Translations under genes and position numbers: made by a program | The notes under the pieces: generated by a model | Told to the model about the DNA's origin: nothing | What the model saw: only the letters and a program-made list of their open reading frames with translations | Database searches by the model: none | In this document: in pieces, positions 6,988 through 51,837 of the stretch | Layout of the letters: the number at the start of each line of letters is the position of its first letter | Numbering within the stretch: position 1 is the stretch's first letter | Assembly: GCA_000004985.1 (NCBI GenBank) | Contig: GG738858.1 | Strand: one strand, 5' to 3' | DNA from: Naegleria gruberi | Lineage: Eukaryota | DNA: 64,000 bases

Positions 6988-9037
6988 ATGCTCAAACCAA
7001 CATCCCTATCGTTGGTATTAATGGTTATTTTGGCCATCCTTTCGGTTTTTGTTGGAGCAGACGAAGTTACACATAAAGTATGTTCTCCTGATTATAGTAA
7101 ATTTATACTGAATAACAAAAATAATAATTTAAAACTTTGTAATGATTAACTGTCGTTAGTATGAAGTTGGAGATAATGTTGTTTTGTGGGCAAATCACGT
7201 AGGACCACATTACAATCCTTTGGAAACATATCCTTATTATGAATCACATGTTCCTGTCTGTAAACCAAATGATCCTACACATGGAGATTTTAAATTGGAA
7301 TATAAATCACTTTCTCTCGGAGAAGCTTTACAAGGACAAGATCTTGTTAAAGTTTACGGAATTGAAACAATTTTCAGAAGTATGTTTTAATTAATATTGT
7401 ATTGTGTTCGAACAAGTGTTTAGAGAATACACCAATCACTCGTTTATGTAAATTGCCAATCACTAAGAAGGAAATTGATCAATATATTTATGCAATTGAT
7501 AATCAATATTGGTATCAATATTACTTGGATGGTATGTAATTTTTAATCATCATAATATTAAATAATAATAATTCAAGATCTTCCAATGTGGGCCATGATT
7601 GGAGGTTACGCCTTGTCAAAGAAGGGAGATACTGTAGAAAAAGTACCTTTTGTTTATACACATCAAATCTTTAATTTGGAATGGAATGAGGATCGTATTG
7701 TTAGTGTAAATTTAACTTCTAGTAGAAGAAAGCCTCTTTTGGATAACACACAAGAAATTACTTTCACTTACGAAGTTAATTGGAATAATAATCCTAATAT
7801 TAATTTTGAGAAACGTTTTGATCTCTACCTTGAACTCAACTTTTTCCAACACAAGATTCACTGGTTCTCAATCATTAATAGTTTCATGATGGTTTTATTC
7901 TTGAGTGCTGTAGTTTTTATGATTTTAATCAGAACTCTCTACAAAGATCTAGCTGCTCTTGAAAAACATGCCAAATCTAAAACTGGTGGAGATATGGAAA
8001 TTGGAACAGAAAATGATAGTGAGTTTGATATTATTGGAAGTGGAGACTCTTCTGATAGTGGTCCTTGGAAAATGTTACATGGTGATGTATTCCGTAAGCC
8101 AGCAAACCTTACATTATTCTGTGCAATTCTTGGTACTGGTCTTCAATTATTATTCTTGGCATTTTATTTGATTCTTCTCTCTATTATCAATACTTGGTAT
8201 GATACTCGTGGAGCTTTGTTGAGAGCTTTCATTTTCACATACTGTATTACAAGCTTTGTTGGTGGTTATTTCAGTGGACATTTCTACCTCAAATGGAAGG
8301 GAACTGGAGATAGATGGATTAGAACAGCTCTCTGGACAGCTTGTATTTTCCCATTCACTGTATTTATTACATCCATATTATTGAATTTCTTGGCTATTTC
8401 ATATAATGCTTTGATTGCCATGCCATTCACTACCATGCTTACTGTTTTTGTTATGTGGTTGTTCATTACTCTTCCACTAACATTTATTGGTACAATCTTT
8501 GGCAGAAACTTCCCTTCAAAGAATGTTGGTAAATCAAGTCAATTCCCATGCCAAGTCAATCAATTCCCAAGACCAATTCCAACTAAGCCATGGTATTTCA
8601 GAACATTTAGCATGTTTATTTTTGCTGGTATTTTACCATTCGGAAGTATCTTTATTGAACTCTATTTCGTATTTACTTCATTCTGGAATTACAAGTTTTA
8701 CTATGTTTATGGATTCCTTTTATTGGTATTTGCAATTCTAGTTGTAGTTATTGGTTGTGTTTCAGTTGTTACAACATTCTTCCTTTTGAATAGTGAAGAT
8801 TGGAGATGGGTGTGGCACTCAATGATTGTTGGTTTCAGTACTTCATTCTACATTTTCCTCTACTCAATTTACTTCTTTAATACCAAGACAAGAATGAGAG
8901 GCTTCTTCCAGATAGTTTTCTACTATGGTATTACGTTCATGTTTTGTGTGGGTATGGCATTCCTGTGTGGTGCTATTGCCTTCTCTGCCACCTATGTCTT
9001 TGTTAAACGAATTTACAAGGACATTAAAGTTGATTAA
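6988..9037 (+). CDS. Transmembrane 9 superfamily (nonaspanin) protein, paralog A (TM9SF2/4-like, Phg1-like)
   Basis: Four exons at ~6988..7077, 7160..7379, 7424..7531 and 7578..9037, with introns of 82, 44 and 46 nt (all GTATGT donors). There is a signal peptide MLKPTSLSLVLMVILAILSVFVGA. The splices join the conserved ...LCKLPITKKEIDQYIYAIDNQYWYQYYLDDLPMWAMIGGY... stretch, and a C-terminal nine-TM region follows. Confidence 0.85.
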
Positions 9038-45376: not shown

Positions 45377-46186
45377 CTACACATAAAGCTCTGTACAGGC
45401 TTCCAAGAATTGATCAAAAGTAAAAGTAGCTTGTCCGTTTCTGTAAAAGTCTTTTGGTTGGAAAATATTTCTGACAATACCAACATAAACACAAAGTTCA
45501 ATGTATCCATCAAAATTTAAAGATCCCTTTTTTTGTGTATCAACAGTTTGGAATATCTTTTGCAACACAATTGGTGAAATTCTGTAGCCTGACTGAGCAA
45601 GTGCTCGTGAGATTTCATCAAAAGATAAACTTCCAGACTTGTCAGTATCTACAAACTCAAATCCTTGCTTCATTTGAAGTAAATATTGATGTAATTGCAT
45701 AAATTCCTCAAAATCAATTTCAGCATTATTATTCCTGTCAAACATTTTAATTAATCTTTTTGCACCTGTCAAAATTCTTGTACCTCATTCAATTAATAAA
45801 GACTTACATCTTTCACTGAAGACTTTTCCTGTAAATTCAGATCCTGGTTGAGTGAGTGCTTTTTGAAGCTCTATCCAAGTAATTTTTCCAGATCTATCCA
45901 AATCAACAGCATCAAAAAACGGTCTAAGTGGGTGAGATTGCATTTGTGGTTGATAAATACCATATTGTGATTGTTGATGGTTTCCGTATTGTTGTGGTTG
46001 CTGTTGATAACCTCCTACTTGTGGTTGCTGTGGTGGTTGATTGTAACCTCCTACTTGTGGTTGTTGATAACCACCATATTGTGGTGGAGGTTGTTGGTAA
46101 CCGCCATATTGTGGAGGTTGTTGATAGCCTCCTGTCTGTTGATAACCTTGAGGTGTGCCTTGTGGAGCTCTAAAGCTTTGATTCAT
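45377..46186 (-). CDS. Penta-EF-hand Ca-binding protein (ALG-2/peflin-like)
   Basis: Two exons (minus strand) at ~46186..45808 and 45765..45377, with a 42-nt intron GTAAGT...TTTGACAG. The N-terminus has G/Y/Q/P-rich repeats (GGYQQPPQYGGYQQP...). EF-hands include DLDRSGKITWIEL, FDRNNNAEIDFEEF and DTDKSGSLSFDEI. Confidence 0.75.
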
Positions 46187-46283: not shown

Positions 46284-46887
46284 TTATTTACTCCACCATT
46301 CACTTGCACTTCCTTTATAACAATAAACATTTTCAATGCCTAATTCAGAAAGGGTTTGAGCAGCCATTTGTGCCCTTCCTCCTAATTTGCAATAGACAAT
46401 AATCTTCTTAGAGATTGTTTCATCATCTCCAAAGATAGATTTTTTAGCTTTGGATGAAATAAAAGCATGTGAAACACCACCATAACCACTAGATGCAAGA
46501 GTAGAATCAGAGTGAACATTAGGTTTTTCAAATCCTTTACATTTTCAGTTGCTAATCAATTATTCACAACTTACCATATGTTTGTTTAAATTGCTTATTA
46601 TCCAAGGTCAAAAAAGCAGGTCCTAAATCACCTACAGGTATGTTGTAAGCTGATGAATGAATTGGAGGAAGTTCAGATGAATTAAATTCTGATGGTTCTC
46701 TCACATCAATTAAAATAAAATCTTCTACCGGAGTCTTTTCCTTGATTAGTTGTTCAACTTGTTGCTTTGTAATAAAACTGAATTGCATATTAATAGAGGA
46801 TGTATTAAATCTCCTAATGGTTCCAGTATTTATGATCAACGATTTGGAATTTATTTTAAGAATTGGTGTGGTTAAGTGTTTGAACAT
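46284..46887 (-). CDS. Single-domain rhodanese (thiosulfate sulfurtransferase-like) protein
   Basis: Two exons (minus strand) at ~46887..46575 and 46535..46284, with a 39-nt intron GTAAGT...GTAAAG. It carries IDVREPSEF and the active-site loop YCKLGGRAQ; the N-terminus is presequence-like. Confidence 0.65.
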
Positions 46888-46957: not shown

Positions 46958-47677
46958 TCAACAACTCTTGAAAAACTTTACAATAAATAAATATTCACCT
47001 TGAACCCATTTCTTTAAAACAATCTTACTTGCGAAACCTCCATTCTCTTCAAGACTAAGCAATTTCATAACCTCTTGAGGTCTATTATCTTCAATAAGAA
47101 CGAAATAAAAAACACCATCTCTTGACAAAATGTCCTTAATCATTGGAATGAATTTATCAATAACTTCTCTGCCATCAATACCACCTGCATAGGCTGCTCT
47201 GACGTCATTATGTCCCATTTCGTATTGTTCGGATGGAACATATGGTGGATTAAATATAAGTAAATCTATTTTGTTCTTCATTCTTTGTTTAAATGCTGAA
47301 TGAAAATCGGTAAGGACAACATCACAACAAATTGGGACTTGTTGTGGTGTTATCTTATTATTTTCCAATGTTTTTCTTGTCATCAAAGCAGCATTTGGAT
47401 TAATATCGGAGCAAAGTAATAAAAATGAATAAGATGCATTCATTAATTGATGATTATTGTTTAATAATTTATAAAGAAATGTTGTAACATATCCACTTCC
47501 GCTTCCTATTTCAAGACAACATTTTAATCCACATTTCGAATTGAGTAAATGATTTACAATATAATCTTTTTCCAAAGCATCCACTAACAAATAAGTATCA
47601 TCATTAAATTCATAAACAAGTTTGAAATCGGAAGTTTTCATGTGGCCCATATTGGGGTCGTTGATACTTTTTGGCAT
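46958..47677 (-). CDS. HemK2/N6AMT1-type protein methyltransferase (eRF1 Gln methyltransferase, Mtq2-like)
   Basis: VYEFNDDTYLLVDALE, an SAM-binding LEIGSGSGYV and the NPPY motif. I propose the true ATG at 47677 (MPKSIND...). Confidence 0.7.
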   Translation of the reverse strand: MPKSINDPNMGHMKTSDFKLVYEFNDDTYLLVDALEKDYIVNHLLNSKCGLKCCLEIGSGSGYVTTFLYKLLNNNHQLMNASYSFLLLCSDINPNAALMTRKTLENNKITPQQVPICCDVVLTDFHSAFKQRMKNKIDLLIFNPPYVPSEQYEMGHNDVRAAYAGGIDGREVIDKFIPMIKDILSRDGVFYFVLIEDNRPQEVMKLLSLEENGGFASKIVLKKWVQGEYLFIVKFFKSC

Positions 47678-47708
47678 TTTTATTAATAATAATTGCAAAT
47701 ATTGTAAA

Positions 47709-48681
47709 TTATCCACAACACCCTTTCTTCCCACTTGTAGGAGAGGTGTTATTTGAAGGATTTTGAAGTTGAGATATTGGTACTAGTCCAACATTACTTG
47801 GTTTAATTTCAGAGTTTTTAGCCTTTCTTTTTTCAAATTCTTCTACAATAGTGTCAAAAATAACATCAATATTCACTCCATCCTTTGAACTTGTTACAAA
47901 ATGTTTGAATACAACTCTATGTGATGACGTGAATTCCTCTACTTGTCTTTCAGATATTACAGATTTTCCAAGATCAGATTTAGTACCAACTAGTATAATG
48001 AAACAATCCTCTGCTGGAGCACTCGTTTCCAATTTATGCACCCATTTAGAAACATTTTGAAAGGTTCCTTCCTCAATCACACTATAACAAACAAGTGCTA
48101 CATTTGTGTGACGGCAGTAGAAAGAGCTATTCCATTTGAATGAATATTTAATGAACGAATACTAACCTCAAAGAATCATATCTTTCCTATTGATGAGTTA
48201 AATGATCAAGAATTTTCAATTAGCGTCAAATCTTACCTGACCAGCTTTGATGATTGATTTAGATGAATTTTAAAGCAATTACTAACCAGTATCCCAAAGT
48301 CCTAATTCTAAATGTTTTCCGTTTTTTGTTGGAATGGCTTTCTTCAAACATGTTAATAAATTCTTTCTCTCAAATACCTACTTTAAAGAATGAAGCGCCA
48401 ATAGTGGATCTTGTATTTCCGAATGTATTATTTAAAAATCTAACCAACTTTTGATCATTGTAGATTTTTACTCGTTGATGACTTACCAAACTGATTTTTC
48501 TTAGAATATTTAAATTATTTAAAAATCATACCTGGTCTACTACAGTGTTATTGTATTTACTATTAATCCCTACCTTTCCTACACCACTGTCACCTGTTTT
48601 ATTGGTTACTCAATCAGGATTTGTTTTAAACGTACCAAGCATGACAACTTTGATGTCCACTCCTTCATTCTTTTTGCTCAT
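47709..48681 (-). CDS. Rab5-like small GTPase with at least 8 exons, including an 8-nt micro-exon
   Basis: The minus ATG at 48681 begins MSKKNEGVDIKVVMLG|DSGVGK (donor GTACGT). Downstream exons encode LVRFLNNTFGNTRSTIGASFFK|AIPTKNGKHLELGLWDT|AGQ|ERYDSL|SSFYCRHTNVALVCYSV...LVGTKSDL...GKKGCCG*. An 8-nt exon CTGGTCAG (AGQ) is flanked by 42- and 50-nt introns. The exon(s) supplying GK[S/T]xL between the P-loop and LVRF cannot be resolved with canonical in-frame sites. Confidence 0.65.
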
Positions 48682-48691
48682 TTTTTAAAAA

Positions 48692-49513
48692 ATGTCTAAC
48701 GTTGTCTTTCATTGTTCGATAGTAAAATTGCCAGATGAAACTGTGGTTGAAAACTCCTTTGATATTGATAAACCAATACACGCCCAACTCGGAAATGGGC
48801 AATTAAAGTTTTTAGATATGGAAGAAAAACTTAGTGTGATGAATCCAGGAGAAACATGTGAGATTTTAACATTAGGAGAGGATCTTGTTAAATATAAAAT
48901 TTCCATCAAACTATTACGAAAATATTCGAGTGATGGCAATGCTACGGAATGGGATTATTCAGATGAAGAGAGCTACAATATAGCTCTAAACAAAAAAGAA
49001 GATGGCAACTTATTCTTCTCTCAAAATAAGAATATTTCAGCTTCCAGATGTTATCGAAGCGGAATTAAACATGTGAGAAGGATCTCCAAATTGAAATGGG
49101 ATTTAAATAATAGAAAGGCTAGGGATTTGTTGATCACTCTGTTCAATAATCTACTCACATGTGAGTTAAAACTTAAAAGATACTCGAATGTTGTAAAGTT
49201 TAGTACTGAATGTCTTGATAATATCGGAGAAAATGTTAAAAGTTATTACAAAAGAGGTGAGGCAAATATGAATGATGGAAATTATTCTTTGGCTAATGAA
49301 GATTTCAGAAAAGCTAAAGAGCTGCTACTCACAGTTGATTCAAATGCTGAAATTTCTGTAATCAGTAAGGTTATTACAGGCTCTCCTAAGACTATTGCAG
49401 CAGATATGTACGACAAGATGATCAAACTATTAGATTCGTCAATTCAAAAGTGCACTAAACTGGATCAAGATTACAATCAAAACATGAAAAACATGTTTAA
49501 AAAGATGTTTTAA
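48692..49513 (+). CDS. FKBP-like / TPR-containing protein (FKBPL/AIP-like)
   Basis: 273 aa. An N-terminal beta-rich FKBP-like region (no obvious catalytic residues) is followed by a C-terminal 3-TPR module (GNLFFSQNKNISASRCYRSGIKH..., SYYKRGEANMNDGNYSLANEDFRKAKEL). Its ATG lies 10 bp from the divergent Rab5-like ATG. Confidence 0.5.
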   Translation: MSNVVFHCSIVKLPDETVVENSFDIDKPIHAQLGNGQLKFLDMEEKLSVMNPGETCEILTLGEDLVKYKISIKLLRKYSSDGNATEWDYSDEESYNIALNKKEDGNLFFSQNKNISASRCYRSGIKHVRRISKLKWDLNNRKARDLLITLFNNLLTCELKLKRYSNVVKFSTECLDNIGENVKSYYKRGEANMNDGNYSLANEDFRKAKELLLTVDSNAEISVISKVITGSPKTIAADMYDKMIKLLDSSIQKCTKLDQDYNQNMKNMFKKMF

Positions 49514-49514
49514 T

Positions 49515-50909
49515 TTAAGGACATTTTTTTGCTAAACATTGAGCAGCACCCATTTCATCAAACTCTGATTTAGAAATCCACATAGATTGAAAAGATCCTA
49601 AACTAGCAAGTATTGATCCACCAATGAATGAAGCATACTTTCTTTCTTGTAGTTGAGCCACTGCTGTTTGCATTGTTGATTGGGTTGAGGAGTTACCCAT
49701 AGATGTGGAAAGTGTGTGAATATTTGCAGATATTTTTGTGTTGAGTGGATGTTTAACTTTAACATTATTTGGCGCCATTCTTATTAATTCGTGTTCATAC
49801 CTTGTTGGTACACCAGGAATTAATGTATTTCCACCAACTAACAAAATATTTGAATATAATTCCTTCCTAAGATCCACGTCACATTTGTTGATAGAATCAC
49901 ATGTCAATTTTGCAAGTCCATATTCATGGTTGAATAAACGTTCACAAATTGAGAATCTTTCAAGACCAATTTCAATATCGTTTCCATCATTTAACTCAAA
50001 GCTCACAAGTGGTGTGTTTCCTGTTTGAACAGCTCCATCCTCTGATGCTCTTAGTAGATTGATCTTCATGTCTCCAACAATTCTGTTGATTGAATAATCA
50101 TTAAAAGATTGTGTTAATCCGTCAATATGGTGTTCTACAATTTTAGTGGATTTGGAGCTTGGTTGTTGAGAGCTTCTTTGCTTAGTAAATTGATGAGGAG
50201 CAAGGATGTCCTTACCTCCCCTCTTTGTTTTAACTAGATTTCTTAGATCTTCGTCCAATACTTTTCCACAAACTTTAGTAGTTTTGATTGTGCTTTGACG
50301 AAGAGCCAAACCGTCATGCACAGATGTGACAGTTGTAGCATTATGACCACTGTCAACAACTAGGGCTGTGTATTTTCCATTTGCAAAACAGCTTAAAACT
50401 GGTTGTTTGGACAAGAAAAAACTTGGAATATTACATTTCTCAAAAACTAGAGATGCTAACTTTTCTCTTCCTGATGAAGAACAAAGAGGATCTTCTGACA
50501 TTAAAAGTGGGTGTTCGTTCGGTTTCACACCTAGTCTTTCGTCATAAATATAATTTAAAGCCTTCTCAAAATAATCAATGTTTTGAACTAAACTTCAATA
50601 AGTCAAATAATAATAAATTATCAACATACTCTCTCCAGTATCTGAATTAAAGATGTTTTGTACTTCCATGCCAGGCCTTGCGAAGGAAATTTCCTTGTTA
50701 CCCACATAATAGCTAGAAATTTTTGATTTATCATCACTGTCAAATACAGTACCAATCACCTAGTAATGTTGGTTAGAAATAGAATCTCGGAAAACTTACT
50801 GATGGGATGATCGCCTTTGGATTTTCTTCTCCTGCAAATCCAGCTTTAATTGTGTGAGTACCGACATCAATAACAACGGCTCCAACCTCGTCTCCACCAA
50901 AAGTGTTCA
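49515..50909 (-). CDS. Actin-related protein 4 (Arp4/BAF53)
   Basis: Three exons (minus strand) at ~50909..50801, 50760..50630 and 50592..49515, with introns of 40 and 37 nt. The N-terminus MNTFGGDEVGAVVIDVGTHTIKAGFAGEENPKAIIPS is Arp4-type. Actin-fold motifs and the Arp4-specific insert follow. Confidence 0.75.
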
Positions 50910-51036: not shown

Positions 51037-51837
51037 ATGAGTATGCAGGATGTTGGTGCAATTTTGTACGTTGTTGTCTCTCGGGGAAGTAAGGGTGAGT
51101 AAACAATTAATAAATATTATTAATAATTTTAAATTATAGTTCTTGCAGAGTTTACAAATCCTACTGTAAAATATGGTAACTTTCAAAGAATAACATTAAA
51201 GATTTTGGAAAAGATACCTTTGCAAAACTCAAAGATGACCTATACATATGATAGTTATAATTTTAATTATGAGGTTTCAGATGAAATTGTATTTTTATGT
51301 ATGACTGATGGTACTTTCAGTAAGGCTCAGTCATTTAGATTTATTCAACAAATTAAAGAAGAGTAAGTAAATGAATCAATTTCAAATTAAACCTGTGAAA
51401 ACAGATGGTTCAAGGAGTATGGAGATTCTGGAAAAACTGTAGCCAATAATTATGCCATGAACAAGTCTTTCAAGTCCACTTTAAAATCAAAAATGAATTA
51501 TTTCAACAATGATCCTGAGGCTAACAAGATTCGTAAGATCAAAAATCAAATTCAAGAAATTCAAAATATTATGGTGATGAACATCGATAAAGTGATACAA
51601 AGAGGAGAGAGAATTGATATATTGGTTGGCAAAACGGATGAGCTTGTAGTTCATGCAGCTGAATTCAAAAAGAAAACTCACCAATTGAAAAATGCAATGA
51701 TTTCCAATACTGTGAAAATGGCCATTATTTGTTGCATATTTATTGTAATTCTAATATTAATAATCTTCTTTTATTTCTGTAGTGGAATATCGTGTGTTAC
51801 TGGTGGAGAGAAGGAAAGTAAAAGTGACTCAGAATAA
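51037..51837 (+). CDS. Longin-domain R-SNARE, VAMP7-like
   Basis: Three exons at ~51037..51094, 51149..51362 and 51405..51837 (GTGAGT and GTAAGT donors). The longin domain MSMQDVGAILYVVVSRGSK|EFTNPTVKYGNFQRITLKILEKIP...IVFLCMTDGTFSKAQSFRFIQQIKEE| joins the SNARE motif RGERIDILVGKTDELVVHAAEFKKKTHQLKNAM and a C-terminal TM. Confidence 0.85.

What the first reader, a model, noticed from the sequence alone, without database searches (positions are those of the whole stretch)
47709..48681. Rab5-like GTPase split into at least 8 exons with an 8-nt micro-exon and an unresolved P-loop exon
Conservation-guided splicing recovers TIGASFFK|AIPTKNGKHLELGLWDT|AGQ|ERYDSL|SSFY.... The AGQ piece is encoded by an 8-nt exon (CTGGTCAG) between 42- and 50-nt introns. 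Between exon 2 (DSGVGK) and the LVRFLNNTF exon, the obligatory GK[S/T]xL residues cannot be produced with any canonical GT-AG combination in frame. A GKSST-encoding fragment (TTTGGTAAGTCATCAACGA) sits in the intron off by one nucleotide. So there is a further micro-exon with unusual sites, a recursive or non-canonical splice, or an assembly indel.
Basis: partly seen in the sequence, partly recalled or inferred. Interest (0 to 1): 0.5.

Follow-up and report, generated by a model that had tools for sequence, protein, structure and literature searches.

The report
Naegleria Rab24 gene with tiny exons
This is an ordinary Rab24-type GTPase gene of the amoeba Naegleria gruberi cut into nine exons, three of them only 5, 4 and 8 bases long. 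The "missing" P-loop piece is supplied by the 5- and 4-base exons through normal GT-AG splicing, so no exotic splicing or assembly error is needed.

Summary
The window is Naegleria gruberi. The gene at 48681-47709 (minus strand) is real and intact.

- **What holds:**
- **What does not hold:** the claim that no canonical GT-AG path restores the P-loop. Two more micro-exons, ACCAG (48536-48532) and TTTG (48490-48487), lie between 37-, 41- and 39-nt GT-AG introns. Together they encode Thr-Ser-Leu and give GDSGVGKTSLLVRF.
- **Ortholog support:** this is the sequence found in Willaertia magna, N. fowleri and N. lovaniensis. In those species the same nine bases form a single 9-nt micro-exon that differs only at synonymous third positions.
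- **What is specific to N. gruberi:** an extra 41-nt intron inside that 9-nt exon.
- **The "GKSST" fragment:** it is the 4-nt exon followed by a GTAAGT donor. It is a coincidence.
- **Family:** the protein (213 aa, Pfam Ras 150 bits) is Rab24-type (TKSD motif, closest to Rab24 references), not Rab5.
- **Public models:** the N. gruberi model (185 aa) and all three N. fowleri models are mis-spliced. The N. lovaniensis model is correct.

No transcript evidence could be obtained. This is a gene-model correction and a splicing curiosity, not a new mechanism.

The parts
48636..48681 (-). Exon 1 (46 nt), ATG...VVMLG (phase-1 end)
   Evidence: aligned to orthologs
48594..48635 (-). Intron 1 (42 nt, GTACGT...ACAG; GTAAC branch-like motif 12 nt from the 3' splice site)
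   Evidence: same position in N. fowleri, N. lovaniensis and W. magna
48574..48593 (-). Exon 2 (20 nt), encodes (G)DSGVGK
   Evidence: 17/20 nt identical to N. fowleri
48537..48573 (-). Intron 2 (37 nt, GTAGGG...TAGTAG; tandem TAG|TAG acceptor, distal AG used; ATAAC branch-like motif 11 nt upstream)
   Evidence: the public model P0001 wrongly retains it
48532..48536 (-). Exon 3, 5-nt micro-exon ACCAG (Thr plus the first two bases of Ser)
   Evidence: every non-empty in-frame chain uses it
48491..48531 (-). Intron 3 (41 nt, GTATGA...ATCAG, 15% GC). Found only in N. gruberi, it splits the ancestral 9-nt exon. Flanked by the imperfect direct repeat ACCAG/ATCAG
48487..48490 (-). Exon 4, 4-nt micro-exon TTTG (last base of Ser plus Leu)
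   Evidence: also used in the public model P0001
48448..48486 (-). Intron 4 (39 nt, GTAAGT...AAAAG). Its 5' end, together with TTTG, makes the spurious 'FGKSST' reading
48382..48447 (-). Exon 5 (66 nt), LVRFLNNTFGNTRSTIGASFFK (switch I)
48342..48381 (-). Intron 5 (40 nt, GTAGGT...TGAAG), phase 0 between K and K
   Evidence: the alternative boundary shifted by 4 nt (FFKV) scores lower
48287..48341 (-). Exon 6 (55 nt), KAIPTKNGKHLELGLWDT(A)
48245..48286 (-). Intron 6 (42 nt, GTTAGT...CAAAG)
48237..48244 (-). Exon 7, 8-nt micro-exon CTGGTCAG ((A)GQ of DTAGQ)
   Evidence: 8/8 identical in N. fowleri and N. lovaniensis
48187..48236 (-). Intron 7 (50 nt, GTAAGA...AATAG)
48167..48186 (-). Exon 8 (20 nt), ERYDSL(S)
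48127..48166 (-). Intron 8 (40 nt, GTTAGT...AATAG)
47709..48126 (-). Exon 9 (418 nt including TAA): SFYCRH...LVGTKSDL...TSSK...GCCG*

Best explanation
The locus is the Naegleria gruberi ortholog of a Rab24-type small GTPase. It is an intact gene of 9 exons and 8 short (37-50 nt) canonical GT-AG introns.

Three exons are micro-exons.
- ACCAG (5 nt) and TTTG (4 nt) together encode the Thr-Ser-Leu that completes the P-loop and the start of helix 1 (GDSGVGK-TSL-LVRF).
- CTGGTCAG (8 nt) supplies the AGQ of the catalytic DTAGQ motif.

The 8-nt exon and a 9-nt TSL exon are older than the Naegleria/Willaertia split for the 9-nt exon, and older than the Naegleria radiation for the 8-nt exon. In the N. 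gruberi lineage an extra 41-nt intron was inserted into the 9-nt exon, between the 2nd and 3rd base of the Ser codon. That produced the adjacent 5- and 4-nt exons.

How it is spliced is inferred, not shown.
- Introns here are about 40 nt, so they are probably recognised by intron definition: U1 and U2 pair across the intron, and exon length is irrelevant to recognition.
- Splice sites only 4-5 nt apart cannot be occupied at the same time, so the neighbouring introns must be removed one after another. Each removal fuses the micro-exon to a larger exon before the next spliceosome assembles.

Skipping one micro-exon shifts the reading frame. Skipping both the 5- and 4-nt exons stays in frame but deletes the Mg2+-coordinating Thr.
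For: **Shown**
1. The full 642-nt CDS is in frame and stop-free with only GT-AG borders.
2. Enumeration of the gap leaves TSL as the only non-empty solution when introns are at least 35 nt.
3. The Pfam Ras score is highest for this model, 150.4 bits over profile positions 1-161 of 162. The alternatives score 148.0, 141.4, 140.2, 138.9 and 134.2 bits, and the public model scores 91.0.
4. Orthologs read GDSGVGKTSLL[VI]RFL. The annotated W. magna P0002 and N. lovaniensis P0122 show this, as does my rebuilt N. fowleri CDS.
5. In those species the nine bases are a single micro-exon at the same two intron positions: ACAAGTTTA, ACAAGCTTG and ACGAGCTTG, compared with ACCAG^TTTG here. All differences are synonymous third positions.
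6. The public N. lovaniensis protein equals my 8-exon reconstruction residue for residue.
7. Synteny (actin-related gene, FKBP-TPR gene, Rab) is conserved, so these are true orthologs.
8. Exons are 71-100% identical to N. fowleri, while introns are 33-63% identical in forced global alignment.
9. Twelve other ORF-joining introns in the window with GTA[AT]GT donors are 36-49 nt, which matches this gene's 37-50 nt.
10. Branch-like TRAY motifs lie 11-12 nt from the 3' splice site in introns 1, 2, 5 and 7. For intron 2 this spacing fits the distal AG that the model requires.
11. Rab24 assignment rests on TKSD in G4, as in Rab24. The best BLAST scores are to Rab24 references from Kloepper et al. 2012 (138, 120 and 111 bits), compared with N. 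gruberi Rab5, Rab21 and RabX1 (101, 101 and 95 bits). That paper lists a Rab24 for N. gruberi.

**Inferred**
- The order and mechanism of splicing.
- The direction of the intron change (gain in N. gruberi).
Against: - **No transcript evidence.** The exact 213-aa protein is not in the 15-billion-protein collection. The spliced junction was not found in JGI metagenome or metatranscriptome contigs.
- **Tandem acceptor in intron 2.** The acceptor is TAG|TAG, and use of the proximal AG would place a TAG stop in frame.
- **A second in-frame chain exists.** A 13-nt exon at 48499-48487 (giving GKT-RKI-SL) with a 32-nt intron cannot be excluded on splice signals alone.
- **Weak branch motif in intron 3.** It has no strict yTnAy motif close to its 3' end, only CTAAG.
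- **Thin sampling for gain versus loss.** The inference rests on four species.
Confidence: 0.82

Rival explanations
1. The second P-loop micro-exon is 13 nt (AAAAATCAGTTTG, 48499-48487) rather than 4 nt. Intron 3 is then only 32 nt and the protein reads GVGK-TRKISL-LVRF, either as the main product or as an alternative isoform.
For: The chain is in frame, stop-free and GT-AG. The AG of CTAAG is the first AG downstream of the ATAAT branch-like motif in intron 3.
Against: It puts a 3-residue insertion directly after GKT, which no ortholog has. The Ras score is lower, 141.4 against 150.4 bits. A 32-nt intron is shorter than all 20 other introns seen or inferred in the window, which are 36-50 nt.
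Confidence: 0.07
2. Both P-loop micro-exons are skipped (exon 2 joined directly to exon 5, in frame), or the locus is decaying. N. gruberi would then make a Rab lacking the GK-T Ser/Thr, meaning a dead or regulatory GTPase or a pseudogene.
For: The skip is in frame and still scores 134 bits against Pfam Ras.
Against: The nine bases encode exactly the orthologous TSL, with intact splice signals on all three surrounding introns. The rest of the ORF and all 16 splice sites are intact. Loss of the P-loop Thr abolishes Mg2+/nucleotide binding in Ras-family GTPases (established knowledge).
Confidence: 0.05
3. One reading: a non-canonical or recursive splice, or a 1-nt assembly indel, is needed to read the GKSST-like fragment TTTGGTAAGTCATCAACGA.
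For: The fragment exists at 48490-48472 and reads FGKSST in one frame.
Against: A fully canonical solution exists and matches the orthologs exactly. GGTAAGT is simply the consensus donor, which reads Gly-Lys. Orthologs have GKTSL, not GKSST. No AT-AC or U12-type donor is present.
Confidence: 0.02
4. The public 185-aa N. gruberi model (P0001) is the true product. In it intron 2 is retained as coding sequence (VGINSKYNNTVVDQ) and exons 5 and 6 are skipped.
For: It is the deposited annotation. It is reproduced exactly by a GT-AG chain that also uses the 4-nt and 8-nt exons.
Against: It lacks switch I and strands beta2-beta3, and it matches only positions 55-161 of the Ras profile (91 bits). The skipped exons are conserved in frame in four species. 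The retained segment has no counterpart in any ortholog.
Confidence: 0.02

Closest known systems
Naegleria lovaniensis XP_044545251.1 (P0122) and Willaertia magna ABK040_015484 (P0002), the orthologous Rab24-type genes
   Same: They share the protein (about 68% and 63% identity), the synteny and the positions of introns 1, 2, 4, 5 and 6. They have the same TSL micro-exon, and in Naegleria the same 8-nt AGQ micro-exon and 20-nt exon.
   Different: In those species TSL is one 9-nt exon. N. gruberi alone has a 41-nt intron inside it, giving 5-nt and 4-nt exons. W. magna lacks introns 7 and 8. N. fowleri uses a GC-AG intron 2.
Constitutive micro-exons of 15 nt or less in plants and fungi. Examples are the 1-nt exon of Arabidopsis APC11 (PMC4674806), adjacent 5-nt and 12-nt exons in a rice gene with pervasive misannotation (PMC8831610), and a 1-nt exon in Fusarium CYP621A (PMC12940212)
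   Same: These are tiny coding exons between canonical introns. They are needed to keep the frame and conserved residues, they are conserved across species, and annotation pipelines routinely miss them or mis-splice around them.
   Different: This case is in a heterolobosean protist with very short (about 40 nt) introns, and no paper in the searched library links Naegleria with micro-exons. Two micro-exons totalling 9 nt lie side by side, with a third in the same 213-codon gene. The plant cases have RT-PCR or RNA-seq proof and this one does not.
Rab24 (Rab5/21/22/24/RabX1 supergroup; Kloepper et al. 2012, PMC3425129)
   Same: It has TKxD instead of NKxD in G4, VD[IL]KVV[ML]LG at the N-terminus, LG[IL]WDTAG, and a C-terminal CC motif. 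It is most similar to Emiliania, Capsaspora and human Rab24.
   Different: It keeps the catalytic Gln (DTAGQ), where metazoan Rab24 has Ser (DTAGS). The non-metazoan Rab24 references EmHu and CaOw also keep Gln. No phylogeny was run here.
Neuronal and animal alternative micro-exons (3-27 nt; PRP-40/SRRM4-dependent)
   Same: The steric problem is the same: two splice sites lie only a few bases apart.
   Different: The animal micro-exons are regulated, are recognised by exon definition and sit between long introns. Here the introns are about 40 nt, and inclusion is presumably constitutive and obligatory for function.

Membership tests
Rab/Ras small GTPase (Pfam PF00071) | Full-length match to the Ras-family profile | tested here: met
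   150.4 bits, E = 4e-44, profile positions 1-161 of 162
Rab/Ras small GTPase (Pfam PF00071) | G1 P-loop GxxxxGK[ST] | tested here: met
   GDSGVGKT, where the Thr comes from the 5-nt exon
Rab/Ras small GTPase (Pfam PF00071) | G3 DxxGQ and G5 [ST]SAK-like motifs | tested here: met
   WDTAGQ (exons 6 and 7) and TSSK (exon 9)
Rab/Ras small GTPase (Pfam PF00071) | C-terminal prenylatable double-Cys motif typical of Rabs | tested here: met
   The protein ends in ...KKGCCG, identical in all heterolobosean orthologs
Rab24 subfamily | Thr replaces Asn in G4 (TKxD) | tested here: met
   LVGTKSDL, compared with human Rab24 LCGTKSDL and crustacean CGTK[LV]DL
Rab24 subfamily | Closer to Rab24 references than to other Rab subfamilies | tested here: met
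   BLASTP gives EmHu_Rab24 138 bits, CaOw_Rab24 120 and HoSa_Rab24 111, compared with NaGr_Rab5 101, NaGr_Rab21 101, NaGr_RabX1 95 and Rab22 94. The PDB search alone was not discriminating
Rab24 subfamily | Ser in place of the catalytic Gln (DTAGS), as in metazoan Rab24 | tested here: not met
   The sequence is DTAGQ. The non-metazoan Rab24 references (Emiliania, Capsaspora) also keep Gln, so this feature defines metazoan Rab24 only
Rab24 subfamily | Monophyly with Rab24 in a Rab-wide phylogeny | not tested
   No tree was built. Kloepper et al. mark a Rab24 as present in N. gruberi, but their alignment does not include the sequence
   N. gruberi has its own Rab5, which is 31% identical and scores 101 bits, lower than the Rab24 references
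Constitutive coding micro-exon | Very short exon flanked by complete canonical introns, where inclusion restores the frame and conserved residues | tested here: met
   The 5-, 4- and 8-nt exons lie between GT-AG introns of 37-50 nt and restore TSL and AGQ
Constitutive coding micro-exon | Conservation of the micro-exon in orthologous genes | tested here: met
   The 8-nt exon is identical in 3 Naegleria species. The 9-nt TSL exon is present in N. fowleri, N. lovaniensis and W. magna with only synonymous changes. The 5+4 split is unique to N. gruberi
Constitutive coding micro-exon | Junction-spanning transcript evidence | not testable with these tools
   No cDNA or RNA-seq was accessible. The exact protein is absent from the collection and the junction string is absent from metagenome contigs
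Non-canonical, U12-type or recursive splicing | Non-GT-AG borders or AT-AC/ATATCC donors are needed to obtain an ORF | tested here: not met
   All eight introns are GT-AG with G at position +5, and none has a U12-type donor

The most novel reading that the evidence does not exclude
A spliceosomal intron was recently gained inside an already tiny 9-nt exon. This created adjacent constitutive exons of 5 and 4 nt, apparently the first described in a heterolobosean. If so, exon length has effectively no lower bound under intron definition in Naegleria, and hidden micro-exons may be common in heterolobosean genes. The Acrasis kona ortholog may even need a 1-nt exon.
Probability: 0.55. Interest if true: 0.45.

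Novelty: new member of a known kind. Interest (0 to 1): 0.33.

Why it matters
- **Annotation.** The result corrects a wrong public protein. The N. gruberi Rab24 model lacks switch I, and three N. fowleri models are also broken. That could mislead Rab inventories of a species widely used to reconstruct the last eukaryotic common ancestor.
- **Pipelines.** Annotation pipelines fail systematically at micro-exons outside plants and animals as well.
- **Splicing biology.** Two exons of 5 and 4 nt separated by a 41-nt intron are a natural test case for how intron-defined spliceosomes cope with splice sites a few bases apart.
- **Intron evolution.** It is also a datable example of intron gain: present in N. 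gruberi, absent in N. fowleri, N. lovaniensis and Willaertia.
- **Scope.** It does not reveal a new mechanism.

Tried and rejected
- **Direct transcript evidence.**
  - The exact spliced junction and a degenerate junction pattern were not found in JGI metagenome contigs.
  - The exact 213-aa and 211-aa proteins are not in the protein collection.
  - P0001 has no gene position on record.
- **PDB sequence search for Rab subfamily.** It was not discriminating: Rab11, Rab35 and Rab21 all score about 100-112 bits and there is no Rab24 structure.
- **Literature.**
  - The library has no relevant paper linking Naegleria with micro-exons.
  - N. gruberi intron statistics were not found in the papers opened.
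- **First ORF-joining intron scan.** It was too noisy. A stricter donor filter worked.
- **Introner-like origin of the introns.** There are no further copies of any of the 8 introns in the 64-kb window.
- **Antiquity of the intron positions.**
  - The lobster Rab24 gene has 3 introns at unrelated positions.
  - A Pavlovales homolog is intronless.
  - So there is no evidence that these introns are ancient.
- **Alternative boundary for intron 5 (FFKV).** Rejected, because the orthologs have FFKK with a phase-0 intron and the score is lower.
- **Hidden upstream exon of the neighbouring FKBP-TPR gene inside the Rab gene.** There is no support for it.

Full report
**Source and locus.** The window is about 33% G+C and very gene-dense. 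The best database match to the spliced product is the annotated "rab family small GTPase [Naegleria gruberi]" (P0001). It is identical wherever the two models share exons, so the window is N. gruberi.

**Checking the observation.** The following points hold:
- The 8-nt exon CTGGTCAG is at 48244-48237, with flanking introns of 42 and 50 nt.
- Exon 2 ends in GVGK.
- The next large exon begins LVRFLNNTF.
- The string TTTGGTAAGTCATCAACGA lies at 48490-48472.

One claim fails, namely that no canonical GT-AG combination can supply GK[S/T]xL. Reading the 126-nt gap (48573-48448) shows two tiny exons, each bounded by AG on the left and GT on the right: ACCAG (48536-48532) and TTTG (48490-48487). Joined, they read ACC AGT TTG, which is Thr-Ser-Leu, and the product becomes GDSGVGKTSLLVRFLNNTF.

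I enumerated every GT...AG exon chain in the gap.
- With introns of at least 20 nt there are 39 chains, and 6 of them are in frame and stop-free.
- With introns of at least 35 nt only two remain. One skips the gap. The other is ACCAG + TTTG.
- Every non-empty in-frame chain uses ACCAG.

The complete model has 9 exons (46, 20, 5, 4, 66, 55, 8, 20 and 418 nt) and 8 GT-AG introns (42, 37, 41, 39, 40, 42, 50 and 40 nt). It encodes 213 residues with no stop.

**Is the model right?** Four independent lines support it.

1. *Profile score.* The model scores 150.4 bits over the whole Pfam Ras profile. The alternatives score lower:

| Model | Pfam Ras bits |
|---|---|
| 9-exon model (TSL, FFKK) | 150.4 |
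| FFKV variant of intron 5 | 148.0 |
| 13-nt exon (TRKISL) | 141.4 |
| TSLVSHQR chain | 140.2 |
| TSHQR chain | 138.9 |
| Skip of both micro-exons | 134.2 |
| Public model P0001 | 91.0 |

2. *Orthologs.* The annotated Willaertia magna protein (P0002) and the annotated N. lovaniensis protein (P0122, XP_044545251.1) read GDSGVGKTSLL[IV]RFL...TIGASFFKK...LGLWDTAGQERYDSLSSFYCRH. I fetched their loci and the N. fowleri locus and rebuilt the CDSs.
   - In all three species, TSL is a single 9-nt micro-exon at the same two intron positions.
   - The sequences are ACAAGTTTA in W. magna, ACAAGCTTG in N. lovaniensis and ACGAGCTTG in N. fowleri.
   - Against ACCAG^TTTG here, every difference is a synonymous third-position change, which is the signature of selection on these codons.
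   - My N. lovaniensis reconstruction equals the public protein exactly.
   - The 8-nt exon is identical in the three Naegleria species.
   - Synteny with an actin-related gene and an FKBP-TPR gene confirms orthology.

3. *Intron properties.* Twelve other ORF-joining introns in the window with GTA[AT]GT donors are 36-49 nt, so the gene's 37-50 nt introns are typical.
   - All eight donors have G at position +5.
   - Introns 1, 2, 5 and 7 carry a TRAY branch-like motif 11-12 nt from the acceptor.
   - For intron 2 this spacing fits the distal AG that the model needs.

4. *Exon versus intron conservation.* Against N. fowleri, exons are 71-100% identical and introns 33-63% identical in forced alignment.

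**The "GKSST" fragment.** It is the 4-nt exon TTTG followed by the donor GTAAGT and more of intron 4. G|GTAAGT reads Gly-Lys in that frame by construction, and the rest is chance. Orthologs have GKTSL, not GKSST. No indel, recursive splice or non-canonical site is needed.

**What is specific to N. gruberi.** Its 9-nt exon is interrupted after the second base of the Ser codon by a 41-nt intron (48531-48491, GTATGA...ATCAG). That intron is absent from N. fowleri, N. lovaniensis and W. magna, so parsimony favours a gain on the N. gruberi branch.
- The intron is unusually A+T-rich, at 15% G+C against 24-31% for the other seven.
- It is flanked by an imperfect direct repeat, ACCAG/ATCAG.
- It has no other copy in the window.
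- Its origin therefore remains open. Insertion with a short target duplication is one reading.

Acrasis kona, a more distant heterolobosean, has no intron at the TSL position. A lobster Rab24 gene and a Pavlovales homolog share none of these intron positions. I therefore cannot call the introns ancient.

**Mechanism (inferred).** Because introns are about 40 nt, recognition is presumably across the intron, and exon length does not enter into it.
- A 3' splice site and the next 5' splice site only 4-5 nt apart cannot both carry splicing complexes at once.
- Introns 2, 3 and 4 must therefore be removed one after another.
- Each ligation embeds the micro-exon in a longer exon before the next intron is engaged.

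Precedents exist for this kind of structure:
- a constitutive 1-nt exon in Arabidopsis APC11 (PMC4674806);
- RT-PCR-verified adjacent 5- and 12-nt exons in rice, with pervasive misannotation of micro-exons (PMC8831610);
- a 1-nt exon in Fusarium (PMC12940212).

**Family.** The protein has all the G motifs and a C-terminal GCCG.
- Its G4 motif is TKSD, as in Rab24. Human Rab24 has LCGTKSDL and the crustacean Rab24-like proteins have TKxD.
- Against subfamily-labelled sequences from Kloepper et al. 2012 it scores best with Rab24: Emiliania 138, Capsaspora 120 and human 111 bits.
- It scores lower against N. gruberi's own Rab5, Rab21 and RabX1: 101, 101 and 95 bits.
- That paper records a Rab24 in N. 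gruberi.
- It keeps Gln in DTAGQ, as do the non-metazoan Rab24 references.
- The protein is therefore Rab24-type, not Rab5. No tree was built.

**State of public annotation.**
- The N. gruberi model P0001 is reproduced exactly by the chain 48681-48636 / 48593-48532 / 48490-48487 / 48244-48237 / 48186-48167 / 48126-47709.
- That chain already uses the 4-nt and 8-nt exons and intron 3. It retains intron 2 and skips exons 5 and 6, which removes switch I.
- Three N. fowleri models (P0003, P0008, P0121) are each defective in a different way. A likely reason is that intron 2 there is GC-AG.
- The N. lovaniensis and W. magna models are correct.

**Remaining doubt.**
- I found no transcript evidence.
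- The intron 2 acceptor is a tandem TAG|TAG, and the proximal AG would put a stop in frame.
- A 13-nt alternative exon (TRKISL) with a 32-nt intron is in frame.
- RNA-seq from PRJEB23822 would settle all of this.

**Verdict.** The gene and the 8-nt exon are real. The "unresolved P-loop exon" is resolved by two canonical micro-exons. The finding is a gene-model correction and a good example of extreme micro-exons and probable intron gain. It is a new member of a known kind, of moderate to low interest.

Noticed in passing
window 24726-23700 (minus strand): A second Rab-like GTPase gene with only two introns and a CTKTDL G4 motif. Its sequence equals 'NaGr_RabX1' in the supplementary alignment of Kloepper et al. 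2012. The 64-kb window therefore carries two members of the Rab5/21/22/24/RabX1 supergroup with very different intron loads (2 versus 8).
   Followed up: partly
window 48682-48691, between ATG 48681 (minus) and ATG 48692 (plus): The divergent FKBP-TPR (AIP-like) ORF 48692-49513 starts only 10 nt from the Rab24 start codon. The same gene pair is 139 nt apart in N. fowleri and 60 nt apart in N. lovaniensis. If both starts are right, the 5' UTRs or promoters must overlap the neighbour's coding sequence, or the leaders are shorter than 10 nt. I found no upstream exon.
   Followed up: partly
window 47677-47709: A Mtq2/HemK-like methyltransferase ORF (ATG 47677, minus strand, weak Pfam MTS hit) begins 31 nt after the Rab24 stop codon. 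That leaves almost no room for a 3' UTR plus a promoter.
   Followed up: no
L002:3166-3216 (N. fowleri ortholog): Intron 2 of the N. fowleri gene is a GC-AG intron (AAG|GCAAGT...TGTAG), whereas N. lovaniensis and N. gruberi have GT. All three public N. fowleri protein models for this gene (P0003, P0008, P0121) are mis-spliced. Two of them carry different locus tags from the same assembly, on contigs of 605 kb and 67 kb, which may indicate a duplicated contig.
   Followed up: partly
L003:2255-2337 (Acrasis kona rab24): The annotated model inserts GEDYLI into switch II (DTAGQ-GEDYLI-ERY) through a 19-nt exon and an unusually short 24-nt intron. A 1-nt exon (G at L003:2295) between complete 40- and 42-nt GT-AG introns, each with a good branch motif, would give the canonical DTAGQERYDSL. 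This is untested and needs RNA evidence.
   Followed up: partly
window 50588-50629 and 50760-50799 (minus); 46535-46574 and 45766-45807 (minus); 7532-7577 and 51363-51404 (plus): Other genes in the window have one or two introns each, tightly sized at 36-49 nt with GTAAGT/GTATGT donors. Examples are the actin-related protein gene and a Gln/Pro/Gly-rich EF-hand protein gene. The Rab24 gene, with 8 introns in 973 nt, is an outlier in intron density for this region.
   Followed up: partly
window 48537-48542 (minus strand, 3' end of intron 2): The acceptor is a tandem TAG|TAG (NAGNAG-type). Use of the proximal AG would add TAG in frame and terminate the protein after GVGK. This is a possible source of unproductive isoforms.
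   Followed up: no
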